Shown one piece after another: positions 1,866-49,518 of a DNA stretch of 64,000 nt. The position numbers and the translations under genes were made by a program. This DNA is from Candidatus Omnitrophota bacterium (GTDB taxonomy: Bacteria > Omnitrophota > Gorgyraeia > Aquiviventales > Aquiviventaceae). The DNA lies in contig JACPAY010000002.1 in NCBI GenBank assembly GCA_016180575.1, positions 27,235-91,234 on the forward strand, written 5' to 3'. Within the stretch, counting starts at the first letter, position 1; each line of letters begins with the position of its first letter. The notes beneath the pieces are model-generated. The model saw only the letters and a list, made by a program, of their open reading frames with translations. It was not told the origin of the DNA and searched no databases.

Positions 1866-3086
1866 ATGACCCGCTCCATACCGTGGGCACCTCGCATCCA
1901 ATACGCGGCGGTGGTGGCGTTCGCCGCGGTCCTCCCGCTCGGGCAGGCGCCAGCCGAGATCACCCTGGTGATCGGCCTGGCGGCCTGGGTGTTCCGCGCC
2001 GTGCGGGAACGGCGCGGGTCCCAGCTGCTGAGGAATCCCCTCAGCGGGCTCCTGGTCCTCTGGTTCCTGGCGGCACTCGTCTCCATGCTGAACTCCGTTG
2101 ATCCGGCGGCGAGCCTGCACGGCCTGCGCAAGCTCCTGAAGGGGTTCGGCCTCTACTTCCTCGTCGTCGACACGGTCGGCTCCCGGGATGCCCTCCGCGG
2201 CGTCGTTGCCGGATCGCTGGCGGGCCTCAGTCTCGTCGTGGGAGACGGCCTGTGGCAGTGGGCCGCTGGCCGCGATCTCATCTACGGCCACGTCCCGGTC
2301 AACGAGTTGCCGACCGGCAAGACCATCCTGCGGTTGTCGGCGATGTTCGGCCACTCGGCGAGCCTGGCGATGTACCTGGTCAGTTGGGCTCCCCTGGCGA
2401 TCGCGGCCGGGCTGGCCGGGGGGCGGCGATGGCGGCGTTGGCTGTTCGGTCTGGGCGCGCTGGCCGCCGTGGTCCTCGTGTTCAGCCGGACCCGCGGGGG
2501 GATCCTTGGGTTTGCGTGCGCGCTCCCGCTCATGAGCTGGTGGCTGCGCAGCTGGATTCCCGCGGCGGTGGGGGTGGCGGCCGCGGCGCTGCAGGTCGCC
2601 ACGGTGCCGCCGGCGGTGGCCGAGTGGGCGGCGGCGATGCCGACGCTGCTGCATCAATTCACGGAGCCGGAGCGGCTCATGTATTGGCAGGCGGCGCTGC
2701 GGATGGTGCAGGCCCATCCGCTCATCGGCGTCGGGGTCAACACGTTCGTCAAGGCATATCCCTCCTATCGCGTCGCGGGCGACCCGTATGCGGCCCTGGG
2801 CCCCTATGCGCATAACCAGTACCTGCAGGTGGCGGCCGAGCTGGGGCTGGTCGGCCTTGCCGTATTCGCGGGGGTCCTGGTCCGGCTCGGTCTTGCGCTG
2901 CGCCGGGGCCTCGCCGCGCGGTCCGGGCACCCGTTCGAAGCGGCCGTCGCCGCGGGCGTGGGGGCGGGGCTCGTGGGCTACCTGATCCTCGGGGGCCTTG
3001 AGTCCTCGCTCTTCTACGGGCGGGGCTCGCTCATCTTCTGGACGCTGGCAGGACTGTTGGTTGCGGTCGAGCGGCGATACAAATGA
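1866..3086 (+). CDS. O-antigen ligase / Wzy family membrane protein
   Basis: 406 aa, multi-TM, with the motif GVGVNTFVKAYPSY...YAHNQYLQVAAELGLVGLAVF. Its stop TGA lies inside the family-A repeat. Confidence 0.75.
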   Translation: MTRSIPWAPRIQYAAVVAFAAVLPLGQAPAEITLVIGLAAWVFRAVRERRGSQLLRNPLSGLLVLWFLAALVSMLNSVDPAASLHGLRKLLKGFGLYFLVVDTVGSRDALRGVVAGSLAGLSLVVGDGLWQWAAGRDLIYGHVPVNELPTGKTILRLSAMFGHSASLAMYLVSWAPLAIAAGLAGGRRWRRWLFGLGALAAVVLVFSRTRGGILGFACALPLMSWWLRSWIPAAVGVAAAALQVATVPPAVAEWAAAMPTLLHQFTEPERLMYWQAALRMVQAHPLIGVGVNTFVKAYPSYRVAGDPYAALGPYAHNQYLQVAAELGLVGLAVFAGVLVRLGLALRRGLAARSGHPFEAAVAAGVGAGLVGYLILGGLESSLFYGRGSLIFWTLAGLLVAVERRYK

Positions 3087-3152
3087 GGAGTCCGGTTCCC
3101 GCTTTCCCATCGGAGAACTCCAGGAAACCGGGAACCGGACCCGGGACTATCG
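3080..3152 (+). repeat. Family-A palindromic element, copy 1 (caaATGAGGAGTCCGGTTCCC...GGGAACCGGACCCGGGAC)
   Basis: Four copies in the window: 3080, 6765 (short), 19270 and 31410. A nested inverted repeat is present, and copies 1 and 3 differ by a compensatory CCCG/CGGG versus CCCT/AGGG change. Confidence 0.8.
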
Positions 3153-4156
3153 GGGACTGTCCGCGTCTCCTGTTCATTCGGACTGATCGGCTCGGCGAAA
3201 CGCTCCTCGCCCTGCCGGCGGCGCTGGCGCTGCGCGCCGCGTCCCCCGGGGCGCACCTGACGCTGCTCGTGCAGCCTGGGCTCCAGCCGCTTCTGGCCGG
3301 CGTGCCGGGGATCGACGAGGTGCTGGCCTATGACGAGACCGCCCCGCCCCAATGGTGGCGGCGGGCGCTGCGCCTGGGGCGCGCGCTGCGGCCCAGGCGG
3401 TTTGACGCGGCGGTCATCGCCAACCCGAAGAAGGAGCTGCACCTGGCGGTGTGGCTGGCCGGCATCCCGGTGCGGGCGGGCTACGGCCGGAAGTGGGGCG
3501 GCCTGTTGACCCACCGGGTGCCGGACCGCAAAGCGCTTGGCGAGCGTCACGAAGTCGAGTATAATCTGAGGCTGGTCGAGGCGGTCCTCGGGCCGCTCGC
3601 CCCGGCGTCGGCTCCGACGGTGCGGCTGCCGCTCCGCGAGGAGGCGAAGGGCCGCGTCCTGCAGCGGCTGGCCCGCCACGGCGTGCAGGGGACCGACCCG
3701 TTCCTCGCGGTCCATCCGTGGACCTCGAACCCCGTCAAGCGATGGGCGTCCGCCCGCTACGGGGAGCTGGTCCGCGCGATGGCGCAGCGCCTTCCCGTCG
3801 TGGTCATCGGCGGCCCTGAAGCCGTGGGCTGGGCCCCAGACGTTGCTCCCGCCGGTCAGCCTCGCGTCGTGAACCTCGTGGGAGGCCTGTCGTTGAGCGA
3901 GCTGGCCGAGCTCCTGCGCGCTGCCCGGCTGCTGGTGTCGAACGACAGCGGGCCCGTCCATCTCGCGGCGGCGGTGGGGACGCCGACGGTGGTGCTCTTC
4001 GGCGGCTCGTCCCCGGCGGCCGGCCCGCGCCGCTGGGGACCCTGGGGGGATGGCCACACGGTGATCTGGAAAGGCTCGATGGAGGAGATCACGGTCGATG
4101 AAGTCGTCGCGGCGGCCCGCGACGTCCTGGACGCTCGCGATCCCCGCGCAGGATGA
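3083..4156 (+). CDS. ADP-heptose:LPS heptosyltransferase (GT9)
   Basis: Motifs LLFIRTDRLGETLL and NDSGPVHLAAAVGTPTVVLFG. No ATG, GTG or TTG lies between the repeat and the conserved N-terminus, so the ATG inside the family-A repeat (overlapping the upstream TGA) is the likely start. The alternative is a rare ATC or CTG near 3149-3170. Confidence 0.75.
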   Translation: MRSPVPAFPSENSRKPGTGPGTIGDCPRLLFIRTDRLGETLLALPAALALRAASPGAHLTLLVQPGLQPLLAGVPGIDEVLAYDETAPPQWWRRALRLGRALRPRRFDAAVIANPKKELHLAVWLAGIPVRAGYGRKWGGLLTHRVPDRKALGERHEVEYNLRLVEAVLGPLAPASAPTVRLPLREEAKGRVLQRLARHGVQGTDPFLAVHPWTSNPVKRWASARYGELVRAMAQRLPVVVIGGPEAVGWAPDVAPAGQPRVVNLVGGLSLSELAELLRAARLLVSNDSGPVHLAAAVGTPTVVLFGGSSPAAGPRRWGPWGDGHTVIWKGSMEEITVDEVVAAARDVLDARDPRAG

Positions 4157-5339: not shown

Positions 5340-5358
5340 GCGGCCTCGCCACCCCACA

Positions 5359-5523
5359 GCTGCGGGGCCTGGCAGGGTGGTGTCTCGCCGGACCGCTCGG
5401 CGTGCCCCACCGTGGCACGCCGTCGCTCGGCTTCCGGGGCTCGCTCGTCCCGCCTGCGGCGGGACACCATGGCCGCTCGCCCCGTCAGACGTCCGGCTCG
5501 ACATCCACCCTGCCACCCGCAGC
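5359..5523 (+). ncRNA. Candidate structured RNA or structured repeat, family E copy 1
   Basis: About 85 % identical to 49803..49972. The closing helix is GCUGCGGG/CCCGCAGC plus GGCAGGGUGG/CCACCCUGCC. Compensatory changes between the copies occur in three helices, so structure is conserved. Confidence 0.45.
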
Positions 5524-5673
5524 CACGCGGTGGCTCAATGGCCCGACGGGTGACGCGGAGCGAGCCCACCGCCCGCGCGCAGTCCCGCCATCGGCGGGAC
5601 GAGCACGGACGGTGGGGTCGCGCAGCGGCAGGACCCGTCGGGCGATCGAGCCAGGGCGGGGGGGAGCGAGTCA

Positions 5674-6771
5674 ATGAGCCCGGTGCCGTTCCTTGAGGTG
5701 GCGCCGTCCCCCGCGCTCCAGGGGGAGCTGGAGGCGGCGGTGCGCGGGGTCCTCGCGGGCGGGCAGTACATCCTCGGGGAGCGGGTGCGCGCGTTCGAAG
5801 AGGCGCTGGCCGCCCGGTGCGGCTGCCGCTTCGGCGTGGGCGTGAACTCGGGCACCGACGCGCTGGAGCTTGCCCTGCGCGCCTGCGGGATCGGGCCGGG
5901 CGATGAGGTGATCGTGCCCGCGTTCACCTTCATGGCCACCGCGCTCGCGGTGACCTGCGCCGGGGCGACGCCGGTCCTGGCGGATATCGACGAGGCGTCC
6001 TATGGCATCGACGTGGAGGACGCCGCCCGCCGCGTGAGCGCCAAGACGAAAGCCATCATCCCCGTCCACCTCTACGGCCAGCCCTGCGACCTGGACGGGG
6101 TGCTGCGCCTCGCGGAGCGCCGGCGCCTGTGCGTCATCGAGGACTGCGCGCAGGCGATCGGCGCCGCCTACCGCGGACGAGCGGTGGGCGGCTTCGGCGC
6201 GGCCGGGTGCTTCAGCTTCTACCCGACGAAGAACCTGGGCGCGGCCGGAGACGGCGGGGCGGTCGTCACCAACGACCCCGCGATCGCCGAGCGGCTGTCG
6301 CTGCTACGCCAATGCGGCACGCGCGACAAGGTGCGCTATGAGATGGTCGGGCGCAACAGCCGGCTGGACGAGCTGCAGGCGGCCATCCTCCTCGTCAAGC
6401 TCAAGTATCTGGACGGCTGGAATGAGGCCCGGCGGGCGCGGGCGGGGTGGTACCGCGCGGCATTCGAGCAGGAGCGGGTGGAGGGGGTCGGCCTGCCCCA
6501 GGAGCTCGCGGAGCGGCGCCACGTCTACAACGTGTTCACCGTGCGCGTGAGCGAGCGGGACCAGGTGCGGGCAGAGCTGGCGTCGGGGGGCATCGAGACC
6601 ATGGTGTACTATGCGCGCCCGCTGCACCTGGATTCGTTCTACGAGGGCGGCGCGGCCAAGCGGGGAGACCTGCCGCGGGCCGAGCAGGCCGCCCGCGAGG
6701 CGCTGGCGCTGCCGATGTATCCCGGGCTCAGCCGGGAAGCGATCGCGGCGGTCGTGCGCGCCTTCAAATGA
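5674..6771 (+). CDS. DegT/DnrJ/EryC1/StrS family sugar aminotransferase (PLP-dependent)
   Basis: 365 aa with motifs GQYILGERVRAFEE, FYPTKNLGAAGDGGAV and YGQP. Its stop TGA lies inside the short family-A copy. Confidence 0.85.
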   Translation: MSPVPFLEVAPSPALQGELEAAVRGVLAGGQYILGERVRAFEEALAARCGCRFGVGVNSGTDALELALRACGIGPGDEVIVPAFTFMATALAVTCAGATPVLADIDEASYGIDVEDAARRVSAKTKAIIPVHLYGQPCDLDGVLRLAERRRLCVIEDCAQAIGAAYRGRAVGGFGAAGCFSFYPTKNLGAAGDGGAVVTNDPAIAERLSLLRQCGTRDKVRYEMVGRNSRLDELQAAILLVKLKYLDGWNEARRARAGWYRAAFEQERVEGVGLPQELAERRHVYNVFTVRVSERDQVRAELASGGIETMVYYARPLHLDSFYEGGAAKRGDLPRAEQAAREALALPMYPGLSREAIAAVVRAFK

Positions 6772-6800
6772 GGAGTCCGGGAACCGGACCCGGGACAATC
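6765..6800 (+). repeat. Family-A element, truncated copy 2
   Basis: caaatgaggagtccgggaaccggacccgggacaat. The internal part of the full element is deleted, leaving the short hairpin GTCCGG-gaa-CCGGAC. Confidence 0.7.
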
Positions 6801-7151
6801 GTCCTTTCACTCGTCGAGCGCGGCTGGCAGGCGGCGCGGGAGTATTCGCTGGACGTGCAGCGGGAGGGCGGAGGCGTGGTCCATCTCGTGAAGGGGGCTC
6901 TCTCGCCGGCGGTCCACGCCATGATCGCCCCCCAGCCGCGCGTCCGCGTCGTGAGCGTCCGGCGCGCGCTGTTCTGGCCCCTCGCGTGGGCGTGGTGCGC
7001 CGGATTGCTCGCGGCGGCCAGGCTGCGCGGGGTGCTCGTGGACAACGAGCGGTCGCTGCGGCGCGTGCGGCGCTGGGTCGGCGGCCCGCGCGTGCGCCTC
7101 GTCCGGGTTGGGCCCGGAGGGCGGGGCTACGAGCTCGCCGGTGGCTCATGA
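6768..7151 (+). CDS. Hypothetical protein (127 aa) that initiates on the repeat ATG
   Basis: It starts at the ATG of the family-A copy, which overlaps the DegT stop as ATGA. It ends in an ATGA overlap with the next gene. No recognisable domain. Confidence 0.35.
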   Translation: MRSPGTGPGTIVLSLVERGWQAAREYSLDVQREGGGVVHLVKGALSPAVHAMIAPQPRVRVVSVRRALFWPLAWAWCAGLLAAARLRGVLVDNERSLRRVRRWVGGPRVRLVRVGPGGRGYELAGGS

Positions 7152-8032: not shown

Positions 8033-9141
8033 GGGTCCTCGTCACCGGCGGCGCCGGGTTCATCGGCTCCCATCTCGTGGACGCCCTCGTGCGCGACGGC
8101 CACGCCGTCCGCGTCCTGGACAGCTTCGACCCGCAGGTGCATGGCGGACGAGCCCCGGACTACCTGAACCCGGCAGCCGAGTACGTGGAGGGCGATGTCC
8201 GGGACCGCGACGCGCTGCGCCGCTCGCTCCGGGATATTGAGGTGGTGTTCCACGAGGCGGCGGTCGTCGGCGTCGGCCAGTCCATGTACGAGATCGAGCG
8301 GTACGTCTCGGTCAACGTCCTGGGCACGGCCACCCTCCTCGACGTCATCGTCAATGACCGCCTTCCGCTGAAGAAGCTCGTGGTGGCGAGCTCGATGAGC
8401 ATCTACGGGGAAGGGCAGTACGCCTGCCCGTCCTGCGGGCCGGTGACGCCGCCGCTCCGCCCCCTCGAGCAGCTCAAGGCGCGCGAGTGGGAGATGCGCT
8501 GCCCGCGCTGCAGCCGTCCGGCGCGCCCCCAGCCGACCGCGGAGGCCAAGACGCTTTCCCCCACGTCGGTCTACGCGGTGTCCAAGCGGGACCAGGAGGA
8601 GCTGTGCCTGTGCGTGGGCCGCAGCTACGGCATCCCGACGACGGCGCTGCGCTACTTCAACGTCTACGGGCCCCGCCAGGCGCTGTCGAACCCCTATACC
8701 GGCGTCTGCGCCATCTTCTCGGCGCGGATCAAGAACCGGCACCGCCCCCTCCTGTTCGAGGACGGCGGGCAGACCAGGGATTTCATCGCCGTCCAGGATA
8801 TCGTCCAGGCGAACCTGCTGGTGATGCGGGATGCCCGCGCCGACTTTGAGGTGCTGAACGTGGGCACAGGGCACCCGGTGTCGATCGCCCAGATCGGCCG
8901 GCTGCTCGCCCAGCTCTACGGGGTGCCGGTCGAGCCGGAGCTCACCCGCAAGTACCGCGCCGGCGACATCCGCCATTGTTATGCGGACATTTCCAAGCTG
9001 CAGGCGCTGGACTTTCGCCCGTCCGTCTCGCTGGAGGAGGGGCTGCGCGCGCTGGCGGCGTGGGGCCGTGGGGTGGAGGCGGAGGACCGGGTGGAGAAGG
9101 CGGCGAAGGAGCTGGAATCGCGCGGCCTCACCCGAGGGTGA
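8029..9141 (+). CDS. NAD-dependent epimerase/dehydratase (GalE-like) with an inserted Cys4 zinc ribbon
   Basis: Motifs GGAGFIGSHL and YAVSK...YFNVYGPRQ. An approximately 33-aa insertion CPSCG...CPRCS lies at nt 8424..8525. Confidence 0.85.
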   Translation: MRVLVTGGAGFIGSHLVDALVRDGHAVRVLDSFDPQVHGGRAPDYLNPAAEYVEGDVRDRDALRRSLRDIEVVFHEAAVVGVGQSMYEIERYVSVNVLGTATLLDVIVNDRLPLKKLVVASSMSIYGEGQYACPSCGPVTPPLRPLEQLKAREWEMRCPRCSRPARPQPTAEAKTLSPTSVYAVSKRDQEELCLCVGRSYGIPTTALRYFNVYGPRQALSNPYTGVCAIFSARIKNRHRPLLFEDGGQTRDFIAVQDIVQANLLVMRDARADFEVLNVGTGHPVSIAQIGRLLAQLYGVPVEPELTRKYRAGDIRHCYADISKLQALDFRPSVSLEEGLRALAAWGRGVEAEDRVEKAAKELESRGLTRG

Positions 9142-9147
9142 CCGTCC

Positions 9148-10263
9148 ATGCCAGTCTGCGATCTAGTCTTGATCAGTTGGAATCATCTCGAGCAGACGCG
9201 GCCGTGCCTGGAGACGCTCTTCCGGTCGACCCGGACGCCGTGCCGCCTCTTCATCGTGGACAACGGCAGCACACCTGCGGTGCGCGCGTTCCTCGCCGGG
9301 GTGAAGCCGCAGGGCGAGATCCGGGAGGTCGTGCTGCTGCAGAACGACTCCAATGAGGGGTTCCCCCGCGCCGTGAACCGCGGCATCCGCGCCTCCTCGG
9401 CGCCGTTCGTCTGCCTCCTCAACAACGACCTGCGGTTCGCCGCGGGGTGGCTGGAGGAGATGCTCGAGGTGGCGCGCGCCGGCCCCTCGATCGGCGCGGT
9501 CAACCCGACCAGCAACACGTTCGGCAATGTCCCTCCGGACGGCCTGCCGCTCGACGCCTACGCCGACCGCCTCCGGGCGCGTCACGGCCGGTACACGGAA
9601 GTCGGGATGTGCATCGGGTTCTGCATCCTGACGAAGCGGGAGGTGCTGGATCGGCTGGGGGGGCTCTCCGAGGAGGTCGAGCGGATCTTCTTCGAGGACG
9701 AGGATTTCTCCATCAGGGTCCAGCAGGCCGGGTTTCGGTGCGTCGTGGCGCATGCGGCGTACGTCTTTCACGCGGAGCATCAGACGGTGAAGAAGATGCC
9801 GGAGCGCGAGGCGCTCTTCGTGAGGAACCAGCGGTGGTGCCACGCGAAGTGGGGCCGGTGGGTCCGCATGGCCTGGCCGCGCTTCACGCCGCTCACCCCG
9901 GGCTCGGAGGAGCTGCGCCGGTGGCTGGAGGAGCTGCTGGGCTGGGCCAGGCGCCGGACCCACGTCTACGTCTACTGCCCCCTGCCGCCCCGGATGACGC
10001 GGGACGCGCTGTTCGGCTCCGTCGGCCTCGTCCCGCACGCGGACATCCGGTGGCATCCGGTGGCCGCCGGCTGGGCCCGCTGGGCGGCCGCCGGGCGCAT
10101 CCTGCGGCGGCGGAAGAAGCGGTTCGATATCATCGTGGCGCCGGACGAGCGGTGGCGGCGGGCGCTTGAGCGCCTGGCGTGGGTGCACCGCGCGCAGGTG
10201 GTCCCCGCCGCGCACGCCGAGGAACTGGAGGCGCAATGGGAACGGTCCCGCTCTCGGTTGTGA
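9148..10263 (+). CDS. GT2 glycosyltransferase
   Basis: Motifs LFIVDNGST and LLNNDLRFAAGWLEEM. Length 371 aa. Confidence 0.8.
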   Translation: MPVCDLVLISWNHLEQTRPCLETLFRSTRTPCRLFIVDNGSTPAVRAFLAGVKPQGEIREVVLLQNDSNEGFPRAVNRGIRASSAPFVCLLNNDLRFAAGWLEEMLEVARAGPSIGAVNPTSNTFGNVPPDGLPLDAYADRLRARHGRYTEVGMCIGFCILTKREVLDRLGGLSEEVERIFFEDEDFSIRVQQAGFRCVVAHAAYVFHAEHQTVKKMPEREALFVRNQRWCHAKWGRWVRMAWPRFTPLTPGSEELRRWLEELLGWARRRTHVYVYCPLPPRMTRDALFGSVGLVPHADIRWHPVAAGWARWAAAGRILRRRKKRFDIIVAPDERWRRALERLAWVHRAQVVPAAHAEELEAQWERSRSRL

Positions 10264-18456: not shown

Positions 18457-19554
18457 ATGCCTGAGCCGGTCCGTTTGGGCCTGATCGGCGCCGGGCGGTG
18501 GGGGCGCGTCCACCTCCGGACCCTCCTCTCGCTCGGGGACCGCGTCCGGCTCACGCACCTGTGCACCACCAAGCCGGCTGCGGCCGACCTCTTGCCGTAC
18601 CCGGTGAGCGTCGTGCCCGACTGGCGGCAGCTCCTCCGGGCGCCGTGCGATGCGCTGATCATCGCGACGCCTCCCGCGTACCATCCCGAGATGCTCGAGG
18701 CCTGCCTGGACGCCGCCAAACCGTGCCTGGTGGAGAAGCCGCTGTGCCTCGACGTCGCCACTGCCGAGCGGCTCCACGAGCGCATCCGGGCCTCAGGCGT
18801 CCCGGTGCTGGTCAACCACACCCACCTCTTCGCGCCGGCGTATCGCGCCCTGAAGCGGGCGGTGGCGGAGGGCGGGGAGCCGATCCGGATCCTCCTCTCG
18901 GAGGGGATGGGCTTCGGCCCGTTCCGGACCCACACCCCCACCCTCTGGGATTGGGGTCCGCATGACGTGAGCCTCTGCCTCGACCTCCTGGGGGAATCCC
19001 CGCGCGGCGTGGAGGCGCTGGGCGGCCCGCGCAGCCCGGACGGCGACCCGGAGCTGGTCAGCCTGCGCCTCGAGTTTCCGGGGGGCGCCTGCGCCTGGAT
19101 CCAGACGGGGCGGCTCGCCGCCAAGAAGCGGCGGAGCCTGGCGGTCATCACCAACAGCCGGCTCTATCTCCTCGACGACCTGGCGGCCGAGCCGCTGACG
19201 GTCGCTCCCATCCAGTTCTCAGAACGGTACACCGATGGCGTGCCGGAGCCGCCGGCCCCTGTGCCGCTACAAATGAGGAGTCCGGTTCCCTCTTTCCCTT
19301 CGGAACACTCGGGGAAACAGGGAACCGGACCCGGGACTGGCATGGCGACGATGGCCCATGTCCTGACCTATTTCCTGGACGGGCTGGCCGGAGGCGACCG
19401 CAGCCAGTTCGGGACCGGGCTTGCGCTGGAGGTGACCCGCGTGCTGGCCGCCTGCGAGCGGGCGCGCATCTCCCGGTATCAGATACCGGTTGAAGGAAGC
19501 CGCTCTTTCAGGCCGGTATCTGATACCGGAGAGGGACATGGCGCCGTTCCGTGA
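18457..19554 (+). CDS. Gfo/Idh/MocA-family oxidoreductase carrying an in-frame family-A element
   Basis: N-terminus RLGLIGAGRWGRVHL, and DALIIATPPAYH. The C-terminal third contains the repeat translated as QMRSPVPSFPSEHSGKQGTGPGT. Confidence 0.7.
   Translation: MPEPVRLGLIGAGRWGRVHLRTLLSLGDRVRLTHLCTTKPAAADLLPYPVSVVPDWRQLLRAPCDALIIATPPAYHPEMLEACLDAAKPCLVEKPLCLDVATAERLHERIRASGVPVLVNHTHLFAPAYRALKRAVAEGGEPIRILLSEGMGFGPFRTHTPTLWDWGPHDVSLCLDLLGESPRGVEALGGPRSPDGDPELVSLRLEFPGGACAWIQTGRLAAKKRRSLAVITNSRLYLLDDLAAEPLTVAPIQFSERYTDGVPEPPAPVPLQMRSPVPSFPSEHSGKQGTGPGTGMATMAHVLTYFLDGLAGGDRSQFGTGLALEVTRVLAACERARISRYQIPVEGSRSFRPVSDTGEGHGAVP
19270..19340 (+). repeat. Family-A element copy 3 (inside a CDS, in-frame)
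   Basis: caaatgaggagtccggttccctctttcccttcggaacactcggggaaacagggaaccggacccgggactgg. Confidence 0.8.
19473..19528. repeat. Family-C REPIN-like element (CCGGTATCAGATACCGG ... CCGGTATCTGATACCGG)
   Basis: Two self-palindromic 17-mers in inverted orientation separated by a 22-nt spacer. It overlaps the 3' end of the oxidoreductase and the 5' region of the methyltransferase. Confidence 0.8.
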
Positions 19555-20428
19555 CCGGCGGATGGAGGCGGGCTTCCCCTCATGGGGGCTGCCCGGCAGC
19601 CGCGCCGCCCGGCTGGTCTTCGGAGACCTGGCCGCCTACCTCCGGCAGCCGCTGGAGACGGTCGCAGAGGCCTACTGGCGCCACCGGGACGGCGACGACC
19701 TGGCCGCGCAGCGGCGGGTCGGCGAGGCGACGGAGGCGGCCGACGTCCTGGCCTACTACGCGGCGACGCCCCACTATCTCTATGAGCTGAGCTACTGGGA
19801 GGCCTCGCCCGACAAGCAGGCGTGGTTCCGCGTCATCGAGCGGGCCTGCCGGCGGCACCGGCTGCGGCGCGTCCTGGATTTCGGCGGGGGGGTGGGCGGC
19901 CTGTGCCTGTTCCTCAACGCCCGGGGCATCCGCTGCGACTACCTCGACGTGGGCGGCAAGACGTTTGAGTACGCGGCCTGGCGGTTCGCGCGGCACCGGC
20001 TCGACGTGGCGATGCATGACGCGGCATCCGGCGACGGCCACTCGTCCGGCTCGTACGATGCCGTGGTCGCCTGGGATGTCCTGGAGCACCTCTTCGATCT
20101 GGAGGGGGCGATCCGGCGCATAGCCGCCCTCCTGCGCCCCCGGGGCTGGTTCCTCAGCAAGTCGACCTTCGCGGTGTCCGGCACTGAGCATGAGGCGATC
20201 CACCTGGCCCAGCATGCCCGGTACGCGGACGTCGCGGAGCTCAACCGCCTGATGGCCCGCAGCGGCTTTCGGTTCGTCGGGCAGCTCAAGCCGGACCGGC
20301 TCTCCCGGCTGCTGCGGCTGTGTGGCCTCCGGCAGGCGGTCGCGGGGATCCGGATCGCGCCGCGCCTGAAGCACGGCGGCAACTTCCTCATCCATGAGCG
20401 GGGCGGCACCGAGGCGGGCGATGCATAA
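19538..20428 (+). CDS. Class-I SAM-dependent methyltransferase
   Basis: VLDFGGGVGGL motif. Start chosen at ATG MAPFRDRR, downstream of a GGAGAGGGA Shine-Dalgarno-like site. An upstream in-frame extension through the repeat is also possible. Confidence 0.65.
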   Translation: MAPFRDRRMEAGFPSWGLPGSRAARLVFGDLAAYLRQPLETVAEAYWRHRDGDDLAAQRRVGEATEAADVLAYYAATPHYLYELSYWEASPDKQAWFRVIERACRRHRLRRVLDFGGGVGGLCLFLNARGIRCDYLDVGGKTFEYAAWRFARHRLDVAMHDAASGDGHSSGSYDAVVAWDVLEHLFDLEGAIRRIAALLRPRGWFLSKSTFAVSGTEHEAIHLAQHARYADVAELNRLMARSGFRFVGQLKPDRLSRLLRLCGLRQAVAGIRIAPRLKHGGNFLIHERGGTEAGDA

Positions 20429-23093: not shown

Positions 23094-23785
23094 GCCGCGT
23101 CCTGGCCTCCCCCCTGGTCCGAGCGGTGCAGCAGCATCTTGAGGGGCTGCGCGCGCTCGGGGTCACCGCGGTGCCGGCGTCCCCCGTGGGCGCAGCCCCT
23201 CCGACTGGGGCAAAGGGCGGCGCTTCAAAGGAGGAGCGGTTGAGCCGGCTCGCCCGCGAGGTCGAGCGCTGCCGGCGCTGCACGCTCTACCGCACGCGCA
23301 CCCACGCCGTCGTCAGCGACGGCTCGCCGCATGCGCGCCTGGTCTTCATCGGCGAGGCGCCCGGACGCGACGAGGATCTCCAGGGCAAGCCGTTCGTCGG
23401 CGCGGCCGGCAAGCTCCTCACGAAGATGATCGAGGCGATGGGCCTCGCGCGCGAGGCGGTGTACATCTGCAACGTCCTCAAGGACCGGCCCCCCGGCAAC
23501 CGGACGCCGCTGCCGGAGGAGGTCGAGGCCTGCCTGCCGTTCCTGCAGGAGCAGCTCGCCATCATCCGGCCGGCGGTCATCTGCACGCTGGGGGCGGTCG
23601 CGGCCAAGGCGCTCCTGGGGCCGCATGTCGCCATCACCAAGGTCCGCGGCGAGGTCAGGGAGTATCAGGGGGTTCCGCTGGTGCCCACGTTCCATCCGGC
23701 GTACCTCCTGCGCAATCCGGACGCCAAGCGATACGCCTGGGCCGACCTCAAGAAAGTAAAGCGGCTGCTTGAGAGAGAGCAATGA
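23090..23785 (+). CDS. Uracil-DNA glycosylase, family 4
   Basis: Motifs CRRC and LVFIGEAPGRDEDLQGKPFVGAAGKLL. Confidence 0.85.
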   Translation: MSRVLASPLVRAVQQHLEGLRALGVTAVPASPVGAAPPTGAKGGASKEERLSRLAREVERCRRCTLYRTRTHAVVSDGSPHARLVFIGEAPGRDEDLQGKPFVGAAGKLLTKMIEAMGLAREAVYICNVLKDRPPGNRTPLPEEVEACLPFLQEQLAIIRPAVICTLGAVAAKALLGPHVAITKVRGEVREYQGVPLVPTFHPAYLLRNPDAKRYAWADLKKVKRLLEREQ

Positions 23786-25986
23786 TGGATCCATCGAAAT
23801 CCCGTGTGGCCGCGGGTGACGCGGAGCCGGGGACCCCGTCGCCTGCCCGCAGGCCGAGGCCGAGGACAGCCGACGGGGTGGCGGCGCGGCAGGACCCGCG
23901 GCCGACGATTGCTGAGGTCGCCTTCAATCTGCCGCTCGACAAGTCGTTCCACTACCTCATCCCGGAGGCGATGCGCCAGACGCTCGCGCCCGGGATGCGG
24001 GTGGCGGCCCCGTTCGGCCCTCGCGAGCGCATCGGCTTCGTCCTCAAGGTTGTGGCCGAGAGCCCCGTGAAGGAGCTGAAGGAGATCCGCCGCGTCCTGG
24101 ACCCGCGGCCGGTGATCGGCGAGGAGCAGTGGGCGCTGGCGTCGTGGCTGTCCACCTACTACTGCTGCAGCATGGGCGAGGCGCTGGCCACGATGGTGCC
24201 TGGCGGCCTGCGCCTCCGAGCGGGGGCGGGTCCTGCCGCCTCGGGCACTCCGCCTGCCGTCCTCGTCCCTGACGGGACTGCGGCCGGCGGCGGAGGCCTC
24301 CCCTCGGCGTCACCCGTCCCCACGGGTGTTGTGATGTTGACCGCGCATCAGCGGCAGGCGCTGCCGCCCATCCTCGAGGCGCTGGAGGCGAAACGCTTCG
24401 CCTCCATCCTCCTCTTCGGGGTCACCGGGTCAGGGAAGACCGAGCTCTACCTGCAGGCGATCGACCGCGCGCTGCGCCAGGGACGCTCCGCCATCTGCCT
24501 CATCCCGGAGATCGCGCTCACGCCGCAGACGACCGACCGCTTCGTCGAGCGCTTCGGCGGCGGCGTCGCGGTCTGGCACAGCCGCATGAGCGCACGAGCT
24601 CGCTCGCGCGACTGGATGCGGATGAGCGACGGGGCGTGCCGGATCGTGGTCGGGGCCCGCTCGGCGGTCTTCGCCCCGGTGCAGCGCCTGGGGCTCATCA
24701 TCATCGATGAAGAGCACGAGCCGACCTACAAGCAGGAGGATGCCCCGCGCTACCACGCCCGCGAGGTCGCCATGGCCCGCGCGCGGCTCGCCGGCGCCGC
24801 CGTCGTGCTGGGGAGCGCCACGCCGTCCGTGGAGAGCTACTATGCCGCCGCGCGGCGGGCGGGGGGTGTCGTGACGCTGCCGGAGCGGATCGCGGGACGG
24901 GGGCTGCCGGCGGCGGAGGTCATCGACATGCGGGAGGAGATGAGCAGCCGCCGCCGCTTCGGCCCTCTCTCAGCCCGCCTGGAGCGGGCGCTCGCGCAGA
25001 CCGTGGAGCGCGGGGAGCAGGCCATGCTCCTGCTCAACCGGCGCGGGTTCGCGCGGGTGGCGCAGTGCAAAACGTGCGGGGCGGTCGAGCGGTGCGCGCG
25101 CTGCTCCGTCCCGCTCGTCTACCACGCCGGCCGCCGGGAGCTGGTCTGCCACTATTGCAACTTCCATGAGCCGCCGCGGGAGCTCTGCCGCCAGTGCCGG
25201 AAGGGCTACCTGAGCTTTCGGGGGAGCGGGACGGAGCGGGTCGAGTCCGAGCTGCACCGGCTCTTTCCCGTGGCGTCCATCGCCCGGATGGACCGGGACA
25301 CCACCGCGCGCCGCGGCAGCCACCGCGAGCTCTACGAGGCGGTCAAGACGCGCCAGGTGAACCTCCTCGTCGGCACGCAGATGATCGCCAAGGGGTTCGA
25401 TTTCCCGCAGGTGACGCTCGTCGGCGTGGTGTCGGCGGACACGGCGCTCAACCTGCCGGATTTCCGGGCCGGCGAGCGGACGTTCGACCTCCTGACGCAG
25501 ATGGCGGGACGGGCGGGGCGGGGGGAGCGGCCGGGGCGGGTGCTGATCCAGACTTTCTGCCCGGGCCACTACGCGATCCAGGCCGCCAAGGCGCACGACT
25601 ACCTGGGATTCTACGCGCAGGAGATCCGGATGCGGCGAGCGCTGCGGCTGCCGCCCTTCGTGCACCTCATCGAGCTGACGGTGCTCGGCTCCTCGCTGCC
25701 GCGCGTGGAGGAGGCGGCGCAGTGGCTCGCGGGCCGCCTGCGGCGGGCGCTCGCCCGCCGCCTGCCTGCCGCGCCGGGGAAAGGCGCGACTCGCGCGGCG
25801 CAGGCAGGCGCCGTCCTGCTCGGGCCGGCGCCGCACCGCATCCCGCGGCTGCGCCGGGCCTACCGGGTGCACCTCCTCCTCAAGGCCCGGTCGGTCGAGG
25901 CGGTGACGCCGATCGTGCGCCGGGTCCTCGCGCCGGGGCGGAAGGCGAAGGGCCTCCCCGTGATCGTCAACGTCGACCCACTGTGA
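23782..25986 (+). CDS. priA: Primosomal protein N' (PriA helicase)
   Basis: Contains the 3' DNA-binding domain NLPLDKSFHYLIP, Walker A GVTGSGKT, Cys-rich zinc motifs (CKTCG, CARC, CHYC, CRQC) and a C-terminal region. Its ATG overlaps the UDG stop as ATGATG, which implies an N-terminal extension of about 38 aa read through the family-B repeat. Confidence 0.85.
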   Translation: MMDPSKSRVAAGDAEPGTPSPARRPRPRTADGVAARQDPRPTIAEVAFNLPLDKSFHYLIPEAMRQTLAPGMRVAAPFGPRERIGFVLKVVAESPVKELKEIRRVLDPRPVIGEEQWALASWLSTYYCCSMGEALATMVPGGLRLRAGAGPAASGTPPAVLVPDGTAAGGGGLPSASPVPTGVVMLTAHQRQALPPILEALEAKRFASILLFGVTGSGKTELYLQAIDRALRQGRSAICLIPEIALTPQTTDRFVERFGGGVAVWHSRMSARARSRDWMRMSDGACRIVVGARSAVFAPVQRLGLIIIDEEHEPTYKQEDAPRYHAREVAMARARLAGAAVVLGSATPSVESYYAAARRAGGVVTLPERIAGRGLPAAEVIDMREEMSSRRRFGPLSARLERALAQTVERGEQAMLLLNRRGFARVAQCKTCGAVERCARCSVPLVYHAGRRELVCHYCNFHEPPRELCRQCRKGYLSFRGSGTERVESELHRLFPVASIARMDRDTTARRGSHRELYEAVKTRQVNLLVGTQMIAKGFDFPQVTLVGVVSADTALNLPDFRAGERTFDLLTQMAGRAGRGERPGRVLIQTFCPGHYAIQAAKAHDYLGFYAQEIRMRRALRLPPFVHLIELTVLGSSLPRVEEAAQWLAGRLRRALARRLPAAPGKGATRAAQAGAVLLGPAPHRIPRLRRAYRVHLLLKARSVEAVTPIVRRVLAPGRKAKGLPVIVNVDPL
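23806..23905 (+). repeat. Family-B palindromic element copy 1 (about 100 nt, ends GGCCGCGGGT...ACCCGCGGCC)
   Basis: Four copies: 23806, 35505, 49537 and 56788 (inverted). The internal pairing is CCCCGTCG/CGACGGGG. A conserved left-flank TCGAA motif precedes every copy. Confidence 0.8.
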
Positions 25987-30330: not shown

Positions 30331-32661
<2,331 letters not shown>

Positions 32662-35470: not shown

Positions 35471-35504
35471 AAAAGTGCCAGGCTGCTCCATCGAAGACTC
35501 CCGT

Positions 35505-35606
35505 GCGGCCGCGGGTGACGCGGAGCCGGGGACCCCGTCGCCTGCCCGCAGGCCGACCAGGCCGAGGACAGCCGACGGGGTGGCGGCGCGGCAGGACCCG
35601 CGGCCA
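35505..35606 (+). repeat. Family-B element copy 2 (in the 5' leader of the permease gene)
   Basis: Near-identical to copy 1. Confidence 0.8.
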
Positions 35607-38114: not shown

Positions 38115-38922
38115 GCCGGTCCTGGCGGTCCGGTCGCTGACGAAATCGTTCCCCATCCACTGGGGATGGCTGCGCCGAGAGACCAGCCGCATCGAGGCGG
38201 TGCGGGAGGTGACCTGGTCGCTGGCCAAGGGGGAAACGCTCGGCCTGGTGGGGGAATCCGGGTGCGGCAAGTCCACGCTGGCGAAGCTGTGCGTGGGGCT
38301 GCTGGCGCCGACCGCCGGCGAGGTCCTGGTCGCGGGGGCGCGCCTCGCCGGGCTGCGGGGCGGAGCAGCCCGCGCGGCGCGCCGGATGATCCAGATGGTC
38401 TTTCAGGACCCCACCGGCAGCCTCAACCCGCGGATGACGGTTGGCGAGATGCTCGATGAGCCGCTGGTCATCCACCGCCTCGCGGCCGGCCGGGCCGCGC
38501 GCCGCCGGCGGGTGGCGGAGCTGCTGGAGACGGTGCAGCTGCCGGCAGGCTTCGCCCGCCGCCTGCCGAGGGAGCTGAGCGGGGGAGAGCGCCAGCGCGT
38601 CGGCATCGCCCGGGCGCTCGCCGTCGAGCCGGCGGCGCTGATCTTGGACGAGCCGGTGGCATCGCTCGATGTGTCGGTGGGCGCCAAGATCCTGGAGCTG
38701 CTGCGCGCGCTGCGCGCGCGCCTTGGCATGGCGGTGCTGTTCATCTCGCATGACCTCGGCATGGTGGCCTCGCTCTGCGAGCGGATGGCGGTCATGCGCG
38801 AGGGGCGCCTGGTGGAGCTTGCCCCGACCCAGCAGCTCCTGGCCCATCCGGCGCACCCCTATACCCAGCTCCTCATCCGCTCATCCGCGCTCGACCTCGA
38901 CGCCGACACGTCCCGTATCTGA
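38107..38922 (+). CDS. ABC peptide transporter ATP-binding protein (OppF/DppF-like)
   Basis: Walker A GESGCGKST and signature LSGGERQR. The stop TGA is inside the family-C arm. Confidence 0.85.
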   Translation: MAEPVLAVRSLTKSFPIHWGWLRRETSRIEAVREVTWSLAKGETLGLVGESGCGKSTLAKLCVGLLAPTAGEVLVAGARLAGLRGGAARAARRMIQMVFQDPTGSLNPRMTVGEMLDEPLVIHRLAAGRAARRRRVAELLETVQLPAGFARRLPRELSGGERQRVGIARALAVEPAALILDEPVASLDVSVGAKILELLRALRARLGMAVLFISHDLGMVASLCERMAVMREGRLVELAPTQQLLAHPAHPYTQLLIRSSALDLDADTSRI

Positions 38923-38971
38923 TACGGGTACGGGGCCTATGTTATAATGAAGCCCCGTATCAGATACGGGG
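38912..38971. repeat. Family-C REPIN-like element (CCCGTATCTGATACGGG ... CCCCGTATCAGATACGGGG) with an internal TTATAAT hairpin
   Basis: The left arm contains the oppF stop codon. The spacer carries TATAAT 26 nt upstream of the marC ATG. Confidence 0.8.
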
Positions 38972-45997: not shown

Positions 45998-47112
45998 AGA
46001 GACGCTATAACGTCGCCGTCGTCGGCGCCACGGGCGCCGTCGGCACGGAGATGCTCCGGGTGCTTGCGGAGCGCCGGTTCCCCGTGAACCGGCTCCGGGT
46101 CCTGGCGTCCGCCCGCTCGGCGGGCCGGCGCGTGCCGTTCAACGGCGCCACGCACGCGGTGGAGGAACTGCGCGGGCGGTCATTCGACGGGATCGACTTA
46201 GCGCTCTTCAGCGCCGGGGCGACGCGGAGCCTCGAGTTTGCGCCCGAGGCGGTCCGGCGGGGCGCGGTGGTCGTCGACAACTCCAGCGCCTTCCGCATGG
46301 CGCCGAACGTGCCGCTCATCGTGCCCGAGGTCAACCCCGAGGCGCTGTCGGGTCACCGCGGGCTCATCGCCAACCCCAACTGCTCCACCATCATCATGCT
46401 GGTGCCATTGGCCCCGCTGCACCGGGCAGCAGCCCTGCGGCGCATCGTCGTGGCGACCTACCAGTCGGTGTCGGGCGCGGGCGCCAAAGCCATGTGGCAA
46501 CTCCTCAACGAGACAAAAAAGGCCCTGAGACATTACGAGGCTAGGGGCTCAGGGCTAGGGGCTCAGGGCAAAAGCCCCAAAGGGTTTTCAATGAAGCAAC
46601 TCCTTGCTCGGCCCATAGCCCATAGCCCACAGCCCAGGGTCTTGCCCGCGCAGATCGCCTTCAACGTCATCCCGCAGGTGGACGTCTTCCTCGACAACCG
46701 CTCCACCAGGGAAGAGTTGAAGATGGTGAACGAGACCCGCAAGATCCTCGGCGAACCGCGCCTGCCGGTCTCCGCCACGTGCGTCCGCGTGCCGGTCTTC
46801 GTCTCGCATTCGGAGGCGGTGTGGATCGAGACCGAGCGGCCGCTCTCACGCGCGCGGGCGGCCGCGCTCCTGCGCCGCGCGCCGGGGGTGAAGCTGATCG
46901 ACGACCCCGGCCGGGGGGCCTACCCGCTGCCGATCCAGGCAGCCGGGCAGGACGACGTGCTCGTCGGCCGCCTCCGGCGGGATGAGTCGGTGGCGCACGG
47001 GCTCGCCCTCTGGATCAGCGGCGATAACCTCCGCAAAGGGGCGGCGACCAACGCCGTCCAGATCGCCGAGCTACTTACCGGTATCAGATACCGAACTCGC
47101 TTTGGTATCTGA
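45994..47112 (+). CDS. asd: Aspartate-semialdehyde dehydrogenase, with an in-frame repeat insertion and a repeat-encoded C-terminus
   Basis: Motifs VAVVGATGAVG and NPNCSTI (active-site Cys). IAFNVIPQVD. Stop inside the family-C arm. Confidence 0.85.
   Translation: MKRRYNVAVVGATGAVGTEMLRVLAERRFPVNRLRVLASARSAGRRVPFNGATHAVEELRGRSFDGIDLALFSAGATRSLEFAPEAVRRGAVVVDNSSAFRMAPNVPLIVPEVNPEALSGHRGLIANPNCSTIIMLVPLAPLHRAAALRRIVVATYQSVSGAGAKAMWQLLNETKKALRHYEARGSGLGAQGKSPKGFSMKQLLARPIAHSPQPRVLPAQIAFNVIPQVDVFLDNRSTREELKMVNETRKILGEPRLPVSATCVRVPVFVSHSEAVWIETERPLSRARAAALLRRAPGVKLIDDPGRGAYPLPIQAAGQDDVLVGRLRRDESVAHGLALWISGDNLRKGAATNAVQIAELLTGIRYRTRFGI
46537..46640. repeat. Palindromic heptamer-array element inserted in-frame in asd (GGGGCTCAGGGCTAGGGGCTCAGGGC ... 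GCCCATAGCCCATAGCCCACAGCCC)
   Basis: The arms are imperfect reverse complements built from the 7-mer GGGCT[C/A][A/G]. The centre is AT-richer. It adds about 25 aa (ARGSGLGAQGKSPKGFSMKQLLARPIAHSPQPR) between conserved Asd blocks. Confidence 0.65.
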
Positions 47113-47118
47113 TACCGG
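47078..47118. repeat. Family-C REPIN-like element (CCGGTATCAGATACC ... GGTATCTGATACCGG)
   Basis: It encodes the last 12 aa and the stop of asd (TGIRYRTRFGI*). Confidence 0.8.
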
Positions 47119-49450: not shown

Positions 49451-49518
49451 ATGGTGTCAGACACCATATTCCTGACCGGGGCAGCGAGGCGACCGAGCTG
49501 AACATGGTGTCTGACGGC
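49451..49518. repeat. Family-C variant arms (ATGGTGTCAGACACCAT ... CATGGTGTCTGAC)
   Basis: GTGTCAGACAC is a covarying version of GGTATCAGATACC around the same TCAGA/TCTGA core. Confidence 0.7.

What the first reader, a model, noticed from the sequence alone, without database searches (positions are those of the whole stretch)
19270..19340. Family-A element inserted in-frame inside a sugar oxidoreductase gene
The Gfo/Idh/MocA oxidoreductase (18457-19554) reads straight through copy 3, gaining QMRSPVPSFPSEHSGKQGTGPGT in the same frame used at the pgk and heptosyltransferase termini. Its C-terminus then runs into a family-C element. An intact long ORF across two repeat insertions argues that the insertions are tolerated as peptide segments.
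Basis: seen in the sequence. Interest (0 to 1): 0.55.

Follow-up and report, generated by a model that had tools for sequence, protein, structure and literature searches.

The report
Hairpin repeat translated inside an enzyme gene
A 73-base hairpin-forming repeat that normally sits between genes in a groundwater Omnitrophota bacterium has landed in frame inside a sugar-type oxidoreductase gene, where it is kept as a floppy extra loop. This kind of event is known from Rickettsia and other bacteria, but the repeat family here is new and undescribed.

Summary

**The insert.** Window 19270-19342 is one of four copies of a ~73-nt repeat. The repeat consists of CAAATGAGGAG, a 17-bp hairpin, and CCGGGACTATCG. 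This copy lies in frame inside a Gfo/Idh/MocA gene (18457-19554).
- 120 orthologues align on both sides of it.
- The loop is 28 aa in 87 of 121 sequences and 47 aa here.
- An 82%-identical orthologue has the empty site.
- A sister lineage (MAG nzgw327) has the same insertion plus 8 more codons, still in frame.
- dN/dS between the two insert-bearing lineages is 0.18 before the insert and 0.09 after it, so translation runs through the element.
- AlphaFold gives a confident fold (pLDDT 92), with the insert as a low-confidence coil before the C-terminal helices.

**The tail.** The C-terminal tail comes from a second palindromic element (19473-19529). Both orthologous loci lack it.

**The family.** I found it only in a narrow Omnitrophota clade. 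Its hairpin shows three perfectly compensated base-pair changes.
- Intergenic copies replace stop-start junctions.
- Its TGA ends the upstream gene in 15 of 21 copies.
- Its ATG is the only canonical start for pgk and the heptosyltransferase.
- There are no TIRs, TSDs or GTAG tag, and the mobilising enzyme is unknown.

**Verdict.** This is a new member of a known kind (RPE/REP-like), of moderate interest.

The parts
18457..19554 (+). Gfo/Idh/MocA-family oxidoreductase ORF (365 aa; GenBank MBI2104147.1). It carries both repeat-derived segments.
   Evidence: Pfam PF01408 and PF22725. 120 orthologues of ~325-330 aa. AlphaFold pLDDT 92.4. Best PDB match is 3c1a, TM 0.89 normalised to the target. 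Exact product found in GenBank and Logan assemblies.
19270..19342 (+). Family-A element, the intragenic copy. It encodes Q272-T294 (QMRSPVPSFPSEHSGKQGTGPGT) in the frame of its own ATG.
   Evidence: 86-92% identical to the other window copies. CM score 97 bits. Absent from orthologue L002 and present in L001/L008.
19280..19330 (+). Hairpin of the element. The outer arms are 19280-19291 and 19319-19330 (12 bp). The inner stem is 19293-19298 with 19312-19317.
   Evidence: RNA fold of -37.7 kcal/mol, z = -4.3. Across 18 copies, 17 pairs are 99.7% paired, and 3 pairs change on both sides with no broken or G-U intermediates.
19273..19276 (+). The ATGA motif of the element. Here the ATG is read as Met273 and the TGA is out of frame.
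   Evidence: Read from the sequence. In intergenic copies the same TGA ends the upstream ORF and the ATG opens the downstream ORF.
19473..19529 (+). Family-C element. It consists of CCGGTATCAGATACCGG, a 23-nt spacer, and CCGGTATCTGATACCGG. It replaces the native 3' end and stop of the gene, and most of the tail residues ~339-365 derive from it.
   Evidence: 6 half-sites found in the window against 0 expected. Absent from L001 and L002. Fold of -46.7 kcal/mol, z = -7.9. The tail has low pLDDT and is coil.
19538..20428 (+). Downstream methyltransferase gene. Its ATG at 19538 is conserved in L001 and L002. It overlaps the extended oxidoreductase ORF by 17 nt.
   Evidence: The alignment shows a conserved ATGGCGCCG start. 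Pfam methyltransferase families are recorded for the orthologous gene in L001.
3080..3152 (+). Family-A copy at the junction of an O-antigen-ligase-like gene and the heptosyltransferase gene.
   Evidence: The upstream ORF ends at its TGA (3086). The downstream ORF opens at its ATG (3083), and the next canonical start is at codon 63. Solved heptosyltransferases align from query residue 28.
6765..6801 (+). Short family-A copy with a 36-nt internal deletion between CCGG repeats.
   Evidence: Alignment. CM hit of 38 bits across model positions 1-84. The DegT-like ORF ends at its TGA.
31410..31482 (+). Family-A copy at the gap-pgk junction.
   Evidence: The GAPDH ORF ends at its TGA and the pgk ORF opens at its ATG. 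Relatives L027 and L028 have a plain ATGA overlap there. Solved PGKs align from query residue 24-25.
9139..9150 (+). Empty site (TGA CCGTC ATG) at an epimerase/GT2 junction. The orthologous junction in MAG nzgw327 (L016:7102-7185, minus strand) is occupied by a family-A copy.
   Evidence: Synteny by blastn. Filled/empty alignment. ORFs listed.

Best explanation
**What it is.** Family A is a small (~73 nt), non-autonomous, dispersed palindromic repeat. I found it only in a narrow lineage of groundwater Candidatus Omnitrophota. Its normal home is the junction between co-directional genes. One copy landed inside the coding sequence of a Gfo/Idh/MocA oxidoreductase, in the only arrangement that leaves the protein intact:
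- it lies in the element's stop-free ATG frame;
- its net length is a multiple of three;
- it sits in a Pro-rich linker between the beta-sheet domain and the two C-terminal helices.

**What happens to it.** The ribosome reads through the hairpin. The protein gains a Pro/Gly/Ser-rich, probably disordered, 23-residue segment, a net gain of 19 aa. The insertion predates the split of the window organism and MAG nzgw327. It has been kept in frame since then, while the rest of the gene, including the part after the insert, stayed under purifying selection. A second, unrelated palindromic element (family C) later replaced the gene's last codons and its stop. That gave a ~24-residue unstructured tail that ends 17 nt into the next gene.

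**Shown:** the insertion, its absence from orthologues, frame retention, purifying selection downstream, hairpin covariation, and the lack of TIR and TSD.

**Inferred:** that the protein is active, that the loop is solvent-exposed, and that the element spreads through recognition of its hairpin by an unidentified enzyme.
For: **The insertion and its age**
- Orthologue alignments cover both sides of the insert.
- The loop from Y258 to F306 is 28 aa in 87 of 121 sequences, 47 aa here and 55 aa in P0001.
- DNA-level comparison shows L002 empty, and the window and L001 filled.
- The same insertion is present in GTDB MAG nzgw327, locus L008.

**Selection and structure**
- dN/dS is 0.18 over 267 codons before the insert and 0.09 over 37 codons after it.
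- AlphaFold gives pLDDT 92.4. Residues 284-292 are below 50 with no secondary structure. Helices 293-310 and 321-341 are confident.
- The insert-free fold is complete in 3c1a, which has 307 residues.
- An unrelated 22-aa insertion in the same loop of P0107 shows that the site is permissive.

**Repeat status and hairpin**
- 4 copies in the window, 14 in nzgw327 and 5 in metagenomes.
- Hairpin covariation is reported.

**Independent reproduction**
- Independent assemblies and GenBank carry the identical 365-aa product.
Against: - No expression, proteomic or enzymatic data exist, so activity of the insert-bearing enzyme is inferred from sequence conservation only.
- The post-insert dN/dS rests on 13 substitutions.
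- The insertion is not a clean cut-and-paste. About 12-20 nt of native loop is missing, so the ancestral state is reconstructed from a single close insert-free orthologue.
- The mobilising machinery was not found. The case for mobility is copy number, filled/empty sites and arm subfamilies, not an observed transposition.
Confidence: 0.85

Rival explanations
1. Fortuitous read-through. The oxidoreductase normally ends before the repeat, and the downstream ORF is chance open frame in high-GC DNA.
For: High-GC DNA does give many long spurious ORFs in this window.
Against: All 120 orthologues extend past the site. They share 14 invariant and many near-invariant columns, including F306, G309, G312, F318, G319 and L330, after the insert. 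The post-insert dN/dS is 0.09. The post-insert residues form two confident helices.
Confidence: 0.01
2. The insertions have inactivated the gene. On this view it is a young pseudogene that merely still has an open frame.
For: There is no functional evidence. There are two repeat insertions in one gene. The C-terminal tail is changed and overlaps the next gene.
Against: The family-A insertion is old. It is shared by lineages at dS of about 0.26-0.43, and both keep the frame despite a 24-nt indel. dN/dS stays at 0.09-0.18 on both sides. The structure model is confident outside the insert. The loop tolerates a different insertion in P0107.
Confidence: 0.07
3. The intragenic copy has been exapted. 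Its strong mRNA or DNA hairpin, or its Pro/Gly loop, now has a function of its own. Examples would be a translational pause for co-translational folding, an mRNA processing or stability site inside the operon, or a protein interaction loop.
For: The hairpin is perfectly maintained in both lineages. In L001/L008 two arm positions differ and both are compensated. The fold energy is -37.7 kcal/mol.
Against: The compensated arms in L001/L008 match a second arm subfamily that is common elsewhere in that genome. A remnant 3' end of the first type is still present next to it. This points to replacement or conversion by another copy rather than to in-place selection. The element-encoded residues evolve faster than the rest of the gene, at dN/dS of about 0.6 over 18 codons.
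Confidence: 0.1
4. Assembly or binning chimera. The repeat caused a mis-join that only looks like an in-frame insertion.
For: Repeats are classic sites of metagenome mis-assembly.
Against: The same 365-aa product is found in three separate Logan run assemblies and in the GenBank MAG. The orthologous insertion is found in two other independent assemblies, ERZ27280021 and nzgw327. Both flanks are the same gene.
Confidence: 0.01

Closest known systems
Rickettsia palindromic elements (RPE; Ogata et al. 2000, as summarised in PMC10969869 and PMC3733652)
   Same: Both are dispersed palindromic repeats that insert in frame into unrelated housekeeping or metabolic genes. Both are translated as a conserved extra peptide, and both are thought to be compatible with the fold of the host protein.
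   Different: RPEs are ~105-150 bp, belong to Rickettsia, are CGTC-tagged, and are frequently intragenic. Family A is 73 nt, occurs in Omnitrophota and has no CGTC tag. Only one of about 22 independent sites found is intragenic. The others are intercistronic.
REP / GTAG-tagged palindromic repeats mobilised by RAYT transposases (PMC3733652, PMC3184786)
   Same: - Short GC-rich stem-loops between co-directional genes.
- Subfamilies with alternative complementary stem residues.
- Termini that often supply the stop codon of the flanking ORF.
- Occasional intragenic copies.
   Different: - REPs are 20-40 nt with a terminal GTAG and often show G-T pairing. Family A has a 17-bp stem and long asymmetric flanks, CAAATGAGGA at the 5' end and CCGGGACTATCG at the 3' end.
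- Family A has no GTAG tag. G-T pairs are absent from the 18 copies counted, though the metagenome copy L018 has one.
- No RAYT gene was seen in the DNA examined.
Neisseria REP2 and Borrelia inverted-repeat elements (PMC3184786)
   Same: These are repeats that sit immediately upstream of genes. They contribute the translational start (ATG) that is fused to the downstream ORF.
   Different: REP2 carries a promoter and an RBS ahead of its ATG. Family A has no RBS ahead of its ATG. Its ATG overlaps a TGA (ATGA), and the hairpin follows the start codon rather than preceding it.
MITEs with intragenic in-frame fusions (ERIC, Coxiella QMITE1, Anabaena MITEs; PMC10969869, PMC5896051)
   Same: Both are small non-autonomous repeats that can create in-frame peptide insertions or new termini.
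   Different: MITEs are defined by terminal inverted repeats and target-site duplications. Neither is present here.

Membership tests
Gfo/Idh/MocA oxidoreductase (host gene) | N-terminal NAD(P)-binding Rossmann domain (PF01408), a C-terminal alpha/beta domain, and the matching overall fold | tested here: met
   PF01408 E=6.8e-19 over residues 6-121, and PF22725 E=5e-7. Foldseek best hits are 3c1a (35% identity, TM 0.89 normalised to the target) and GnnA 7bvj.
Rickettsia palindromic elements (RPE) | Palindromic repeat of ~105-150 bp from Rickettsia, tagged at one end by CGTC | tested here: not met
   The element is 73 nt and comes from Candidatus Omnitrophota. No CGTC abuts the stem in the consensus. 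Sequence similarity to RPEs was not tested.
Rickettsia palindromic elements (RPE) | In-frame insertion into protein-coding genes, with a conserved encoded peptide | tested here: met
   One intragenic copy is shared by two lineages. The same peptide frame is open into 10-11 of 21 downstream genes.
REP (GTAG super-family, RAYT-mobilised) | Terminal GTAG (or GYAG/GTRG) tetranucleotide next to a short imperfect palindrome | tested here: not met
   The 5' foot reads GAGGA|G and the 3' foot reads C|CCGGGAC. No GTAG variant is present on either strand in the 18-copy alignment.
REP (GTAG super-family, RAYT-mobilised) | Association with a RAYT / IS200-IS605-type Y1 transposase gene flanked by the repeats | tested here: inconclusive
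Only part of either genome was available, and the query is distant from RAYTs.
MITE | Terminal inverted repeats | tested here: not met
   The palindrome is internal. The conserved ends, (W)CAAATGAGGA and CCGGGACTATCG, are not complementary to each other.
MITE | Target-site duplication flanking the insertion | tested here: not met
   Three filled/empty comparisons show no duplication. In each, 12-20 nt of native sequence is replaced.
Neisseria REP2-type start-site repeat | The repeat supplies an RBS and an ATG that are fused to the downstream ORF | tested here: inconclusive
   The ATG is fused to downstream ORFs and is the only canonical start for pgk, the heptosyltransferase, Era, a SpoIID-like gene and a GT2 gene. 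However, no RBS precedes the ATG, and GenBank annotates pgk from the ATC at the element's 3' end.
Any Rfam RNA family | Match at the gathering threshold | tested here: not met
   The only hit in the 64-kb window is a tRNA at 50725-50815.

The most novel reading that the evidence does not exclude
Family A is not just a selfish hairpin. On this reading it is a mobile intercistronic cassette that replaces native stop-start junctions.
- It brings its own stop (TGA, or TAA in TAACAAATGA) for the upstream gene.
- It brings an overlapping ATG for the downstream gene.
- It brings a benign 22-23-residue Pro/Gly-rich leader that is really translated.
- Its 17-bp hairpin, placed 5 nt after the AUG, makes downstream initiation strictly dependent on termination-reinitiation, which would be enforced translational coupling.

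The oxidoreductase copy would then be the same cassette landing off-target in the one frame that evolution has kept harmless.
Probability: 0.3. Interest if true: 0.65.

Novelty: new member of a known kind. Interest (0 to 1): 0.42.

Why it matters
- **A clean example in an uncultivated phylum.** It is a phylogenetically dated case of a small palindromic repeat being absorbed into an enzyme as a peptide loop. The case has an empty-site control, a sister lineage that re-modelled the insert while keeping the frame, and evidence of continued purifying selection. This extends the Rickettsia RPE phenomenon to Omnitrophota.
- **A practical annotation warning.** In this clade the same element sits on stop-start junctions. 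Gene callers therefore either add a 22-aa leader or, as GenBank did for pgk, invoke a non-canonical ATC start.
- **A possible new role.** If the leader is really translated, the family would be a natural mobile module that rewires translational coupling and protein N-termini.

Tried and rejected
1. **Rfam scan of the whole window.** Only a tRNA was found and nothing matched the element.
2. **Protein-level census of element-encoded peptides.** I searched the 5.8-billion-protein set with a concatenated four-frame peptide profile. Only one protein passed E<=10, because 23-aa matches cannot reach significance at that database size, so the search was uninformative.
3. **Collection scans with the hairpin pattern.**
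   - Genome contigs returned a single MAG (14 stretches).
   - Metagenome contigs returned 6 stretches, one of them (L019) a chance match.
   - The family is therefore rare, and a broad survey of intragenic copies was not possible.
4. **Covariance model R1.** It found no extra diverged copies in the window.
5. **CAAATGA as a pre-existing target rather than part of the element.** Four of the five CAAATGA sites in the window are element copies. The intragenic and GT2 sites have no native ATGA, so the motif travels with the element. The excess of ATGAGGAG (14 against 1.6 expected) is ordinary coding sequence, not hidden copies.
6. **Clean insertion after a native ATGA.** This fits gap-pgk but not the GT2 junction or the oxidoreductase loop.
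7. **IS200/RAYT-like transposase near the copies.** Nothing was found, but the test was weak.
8. **Integron attC, intein and translational bypass readings.**
   - The neighbouring genes are core genes.
   - No R'/R'' core sites are present.
   - The frame is simply open.
   - I did not pursue these further.
Full report
**1. The observation**

Window 19270-19342 reads CAAATGAGGAG-GTCCGGTTCCCT-c-TTTCCC-ttcggaacactc-GGGGAAA-c-AGGGAACCGGAC-CCGGGACTGGCA.
- A hairpin-pattern search finds exactly three full copies in the window (3090, 19280, 31420) against 0.00 expected.
- The repeat finder aligns 3080-3152, 19270-19342 and 31410-31482 at 86-92% identity.
- A fourth copy at 6765-6801 has lost 36 internal bases between two CCGG repeats.
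- ORF 18457-19554 (365 aa) crosses the copy in the frame of the element's own ATG, giving Q272-MRSPVPSFPSEHSGKQGTGPGT-294.
- The ORF is a Gfo/Idh/MocA oxidoreductase (PF01408 6.8e-19, PF22725 5e-7).
- The mechanical pgk and heptosyltransferase ORFs begin at the same ATG in the same frame.
- The 3' end of the ORF runs through a second palindromic element, CCGGTATCAGATACCGG-N23-CCGGTATCTGATACCGG at 19473-19529. This element has two more copies in the window.

**2. Is the insert really inside the gene?**

A search of 5.8 billion proteins returned over 800 relatives. The best 120 are 312-402 aa long, mostly about 325-330, and cover about 92% of the query.
- In alignments of 17 and 121 sequences the orthologues match on both sides of the element. 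After the insert come conserved columns F306, G309, G312, F318, G319, L322, A323 and L330.
- Between the anchors Y258 and F306, the linker is 28 residues in 87 of 121 sequences. It is 47 residues in the window protein and 55 in P0001.
- The closest insert-free orthologue is P0002 (82% identity, locus L002). It reads ...CCGCTGCACGCGGCGTCGGAGGGCTCGACGATGGCC..., where the window reads ...CCGCT-ACAAATGAGGAG...GGGACTGGCATGG-CGACGATGGCC....
- The element therefore replaced about 20 nt with 77 nt, a net gain of 57 nt or 19 codons. There is no target-site duplication.

**3. Age, and evidence of translation**

P0001 (locus L001, ENA) and the 99.9% identical gene in GTDB MAG 'Candidatus Omnitrophota bacterium nzgw327' (locus L008) carry the element at the same codon.

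Their copy has hairpin arms GACCGC/GCGGTC instead of GTCCGG/CCGGAC. Both changes are compensated. The copy is followed by an extra 24 nt, a second 3' end of the GTCCGG type. A second family member therefore overwrote or converted the first, and the frame survived because the difference is 8 codons.

Nei-Gojobori estimates between the window gene and L001:

| Region | Codons | dS | dN | dN/dS |
|---|---|---|---|---|
| Before the insert | 267 | 0.26 | 0.048 | 0.18 |
| After the insert | 37 | 0.43 | 0.038 | 0.09 |
| Element-encoded codons | 18 | 0.175 | 0.104 | ~0.6 |

The post-insert estimate rests on 10 synonymous and 3 non-synonymous differences. Purifying selection downstream of the insert in both insert-bearing lineages means that ribosomes read through the element in this frame.

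The identical 365-aa product is present in three separate Logan assemblies and in GenBank (MBI2104147.1, contig of 103,869 nt). This excludes an assembly artefact.

**4. Structure**

AlphaFold2 with the 121-sequence alignment gives mean pLDDT 92.4 and pTM 0.89.
- Residues 258-292 have no secondary structure.
- pLDDT falls to 73, 49 and 71 in the blocks 271-280, 281-290 and 291-300. It is below 50 for residues 284-292.
- The helices 293-310 and 321-341 that follow are confident.
- The tail 342-365, which is family-C-derived, is coil with pLDDT falling from 78 to 59.
- The best solved match is 3c1a (307 residues, 35% identity, TM 0.89 normalised to the target). It has the complete fold without the insert or the tail.
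- P0107 carries an unrelated 22-residue insertion in the same linker, so the site is permissive.

Solvent exposure itself was not computed. It is inferred from disorder.

**5. The C-terminal element**

L001 ends ...GCCATCGCCGGCAGGTGA, 9 nt before the conserved ATGGCGCCG start of the next gene. L002 ends in its own short tail. Neither has the family-C sequence.

In the window the element replaces the native end. The ORF therefore continues to a TGA 17 nt inside the methyltransferase gene. The element folds at -46.7 kcal/mol (z = -7.9), and its 3' foot includes the GGAGAGG that lies ahead of the next ATG.

**6. What family A is**

*Distribution*
- A 23-base hairpin pattern hit only one of the 185,579 species-representative genomes, nzgw327, with 14 stretches and 15 copies.
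- It hit five true copies in JGI and ENA metagenomes plus one chance match.
- A covariance model built from 18 copies finds no further copies in the window.
- Rfam has no match.

*Hairpin*
- Across the 18 copies the 17-pair hairpin is 99.7% paired.
- Three positions change on both sides: U-A/A-U in 11 and 7 copies, G-C/C-G in 14 and 4, and U-A/G-C in 14 and 4.
- None of the 18 copies has a one-sided change or a G-U intermediate. Slid controls drop to 26-67% paired.
- The metagenome copy L018, which was not in that alignment, has one T-G mismatch.
- The loop is variable.
- Distinct arm types, each present in several copies, are what amplification from palindromic master copies would give. The near-absence of G-U pairs is compatible with recognition at the DNA level.

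*Ends and borders*
- The ends, (W)CAAATGAGGA and CCGGGACTATCG, are asymmetric, so there are no terminal inverted repeats.
- Three filled/empty comparisons show replacement of a short native stretch and no duplication:
  - the oxidoreductase loop;
  - the gap-pgk junction, a plain ATGA overlap in L027 and L028;
  - an epimerase/GT2 junction, which is filled in L016 and empty at window 9139-9150 as TGA-CCGTC-ATG.
- Four of the five CAAATGA sites in the window belong to the element, so the motif travels with it.
- No IS200-like gene was seen, but that test was weak.

**7. Behaviour at gene junctions**

- In 15 of 21 non-intragenic copies a long upstream ORF ends exactly at the element's TGA. In two more it ends at the TAA of TAACAAATGA.
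- In 10-11 of the 21 copies the ATG frame stays open into the downstream gene.
- For pgk the next canonical start is codon 42, inside RVDFNVP. Solved PGKs align from query residue 24-25.
- For the heptosyltransferase the next canonical start is codon 63. Solved enzymes align from query residue 28.
- Era (L003), a SpoIID-like protein (L014) and a GT2 (L016) behave in the same way.
- Insert-free PGK orthologues begin MKQTV....
- GenBank annotates the window's PGK as 396 aa (MAKQTV...), which requires the non-canonical ATC at the element's 3' end.

Either these proteins carry the 22-23-residue leader MRSPVP(A/S)FPS...GTGPGTI, started by termination-reinitiation at AUGA, or they start at AUC. Sequence alone cannot decide.

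Family C behaves similarly. The copies at 38912-38970 and 47078-47118 give their TGA (in TCTGATA) to the upstream ORF and abut the next start.

**8. Comparison with known systems**

In-frame palindromic repeats in genes are the hallmark of Rickettsia RPEs (reviewed in PMC10969869). GTAG and CGTC REPs frequently donate stop codons, have stem subfamilies with alternative complementary residues, and are occasionally intragenic (PMC3733652). Neisseria REP2 and Borrelia repeats donate an RBS and an ATG to downstream ORFs (PMC3184786).

Family A works like a combination of these but fails each membership test that could be run:
- It has no CGTC or GTAG tag, and its size and host differ from RPE and REP.
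- It has no TIR and no TSD, which rules out MITE.
- It has no RBS ahead of its ATG, unlike REP2.

It is therefore a new family of a known kind, not a new kind.

**9. Verdict**

This is a moderately interesting, well-controlled case rather than a surprise.

The more novel possibility is that the family is a mobile stop-start cassette that enforces translational coupling and is co-translated as a leader. That possibility is left open, at about 0.3.

Noticed in passing
window 31410-31484 (gap-pgk) and 3080-3152 (heptosyltransferase); L003, L014, L016: The downstream genes have no canonical start codon other than the element's ATG. For pgk the next one is codon 42, and for the heptosyltransferase it is codon 63. 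GenBank's PGK (MBI2104160.1, 396 aa) is annotated from the non-canonical ATC at the element's 3' end. Relatives without the element have a plain ATGA overlap and start MKQTV.
   Followed up: partly
window 38912-38970 and 47078-47118 (family C): The other two family-C copies are intercistronic. The TGA inside their TCTGATA half-site ends the upstream ORF (ORF ends 38922 and 47112), and the next gene's ATG follows within 5-12 nt (38975 and 47124). The spacer between the two 17-nt palindromes varies between 7, 23 and 25 nt.
   Followed up: partly
L001:1483-1580 and L008:1869-1966: The sister-lineage copy in the same gene is a complete element of the GACCGC arm type. It is followed by a 24-nt remnant 3' end of the GTCCGG arm type. 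This suggests a second element overwrote or converted the first at the same site.
   Followed up: partly
L013:5640-5740 (minus strand), upstream of a bioD-like gene: The element's 3' tail motif CCCGGGACTATC recurs three to four times in about 70 nt, interleaved with small GGGAC...GTCCC palindromes. The tail may be a separate repeat unit. Window 3150-3165 has a similar GGGGACTGTCC after its copy.
   Followed up: no
window 6765-7151: The short element copy (36-nt internal deletion between CCGG repeats) is followed, in the ATG frame, by a 127-codon ORF of unknown status. This ORF ends where the next gene (MKLALIFDK...) seems to begin.
   Followed up: no
window 23776-23905, 35475-35604, 49507-49636; also 5358-5525 vs 49812-49984: There are other, longer dispersed repeats. 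One is a 130-nt family in three copies (63-89% identity). Another is a pair of ~97-nt and 65-nt segments at 90-95% identity, 44.5 kb apart. The window is unusually repeat-rich.
   Followed up: no
protein P0107 (orthologue, 402 aa): It carries an unrelated ~22-residue Pro/Thr/Ser-rich insertion in the same Y258-F306 linker and a 49-residue C-terminal tail. The same two positions therefore accept extra sequence in another lineage.
   Followed up: no
window 19464-19540: The 3' foot of the family-C hairpin (-46.7 kcal/mol) pairs part of the GGAGAGG Shine-Dalgarno-like sequence of the downstream methyltransferase gene (ATG at 19538). Translation of that gene may therefore depend on ribosomes finishing the oxidoreductase ORF.
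   Followed up: no
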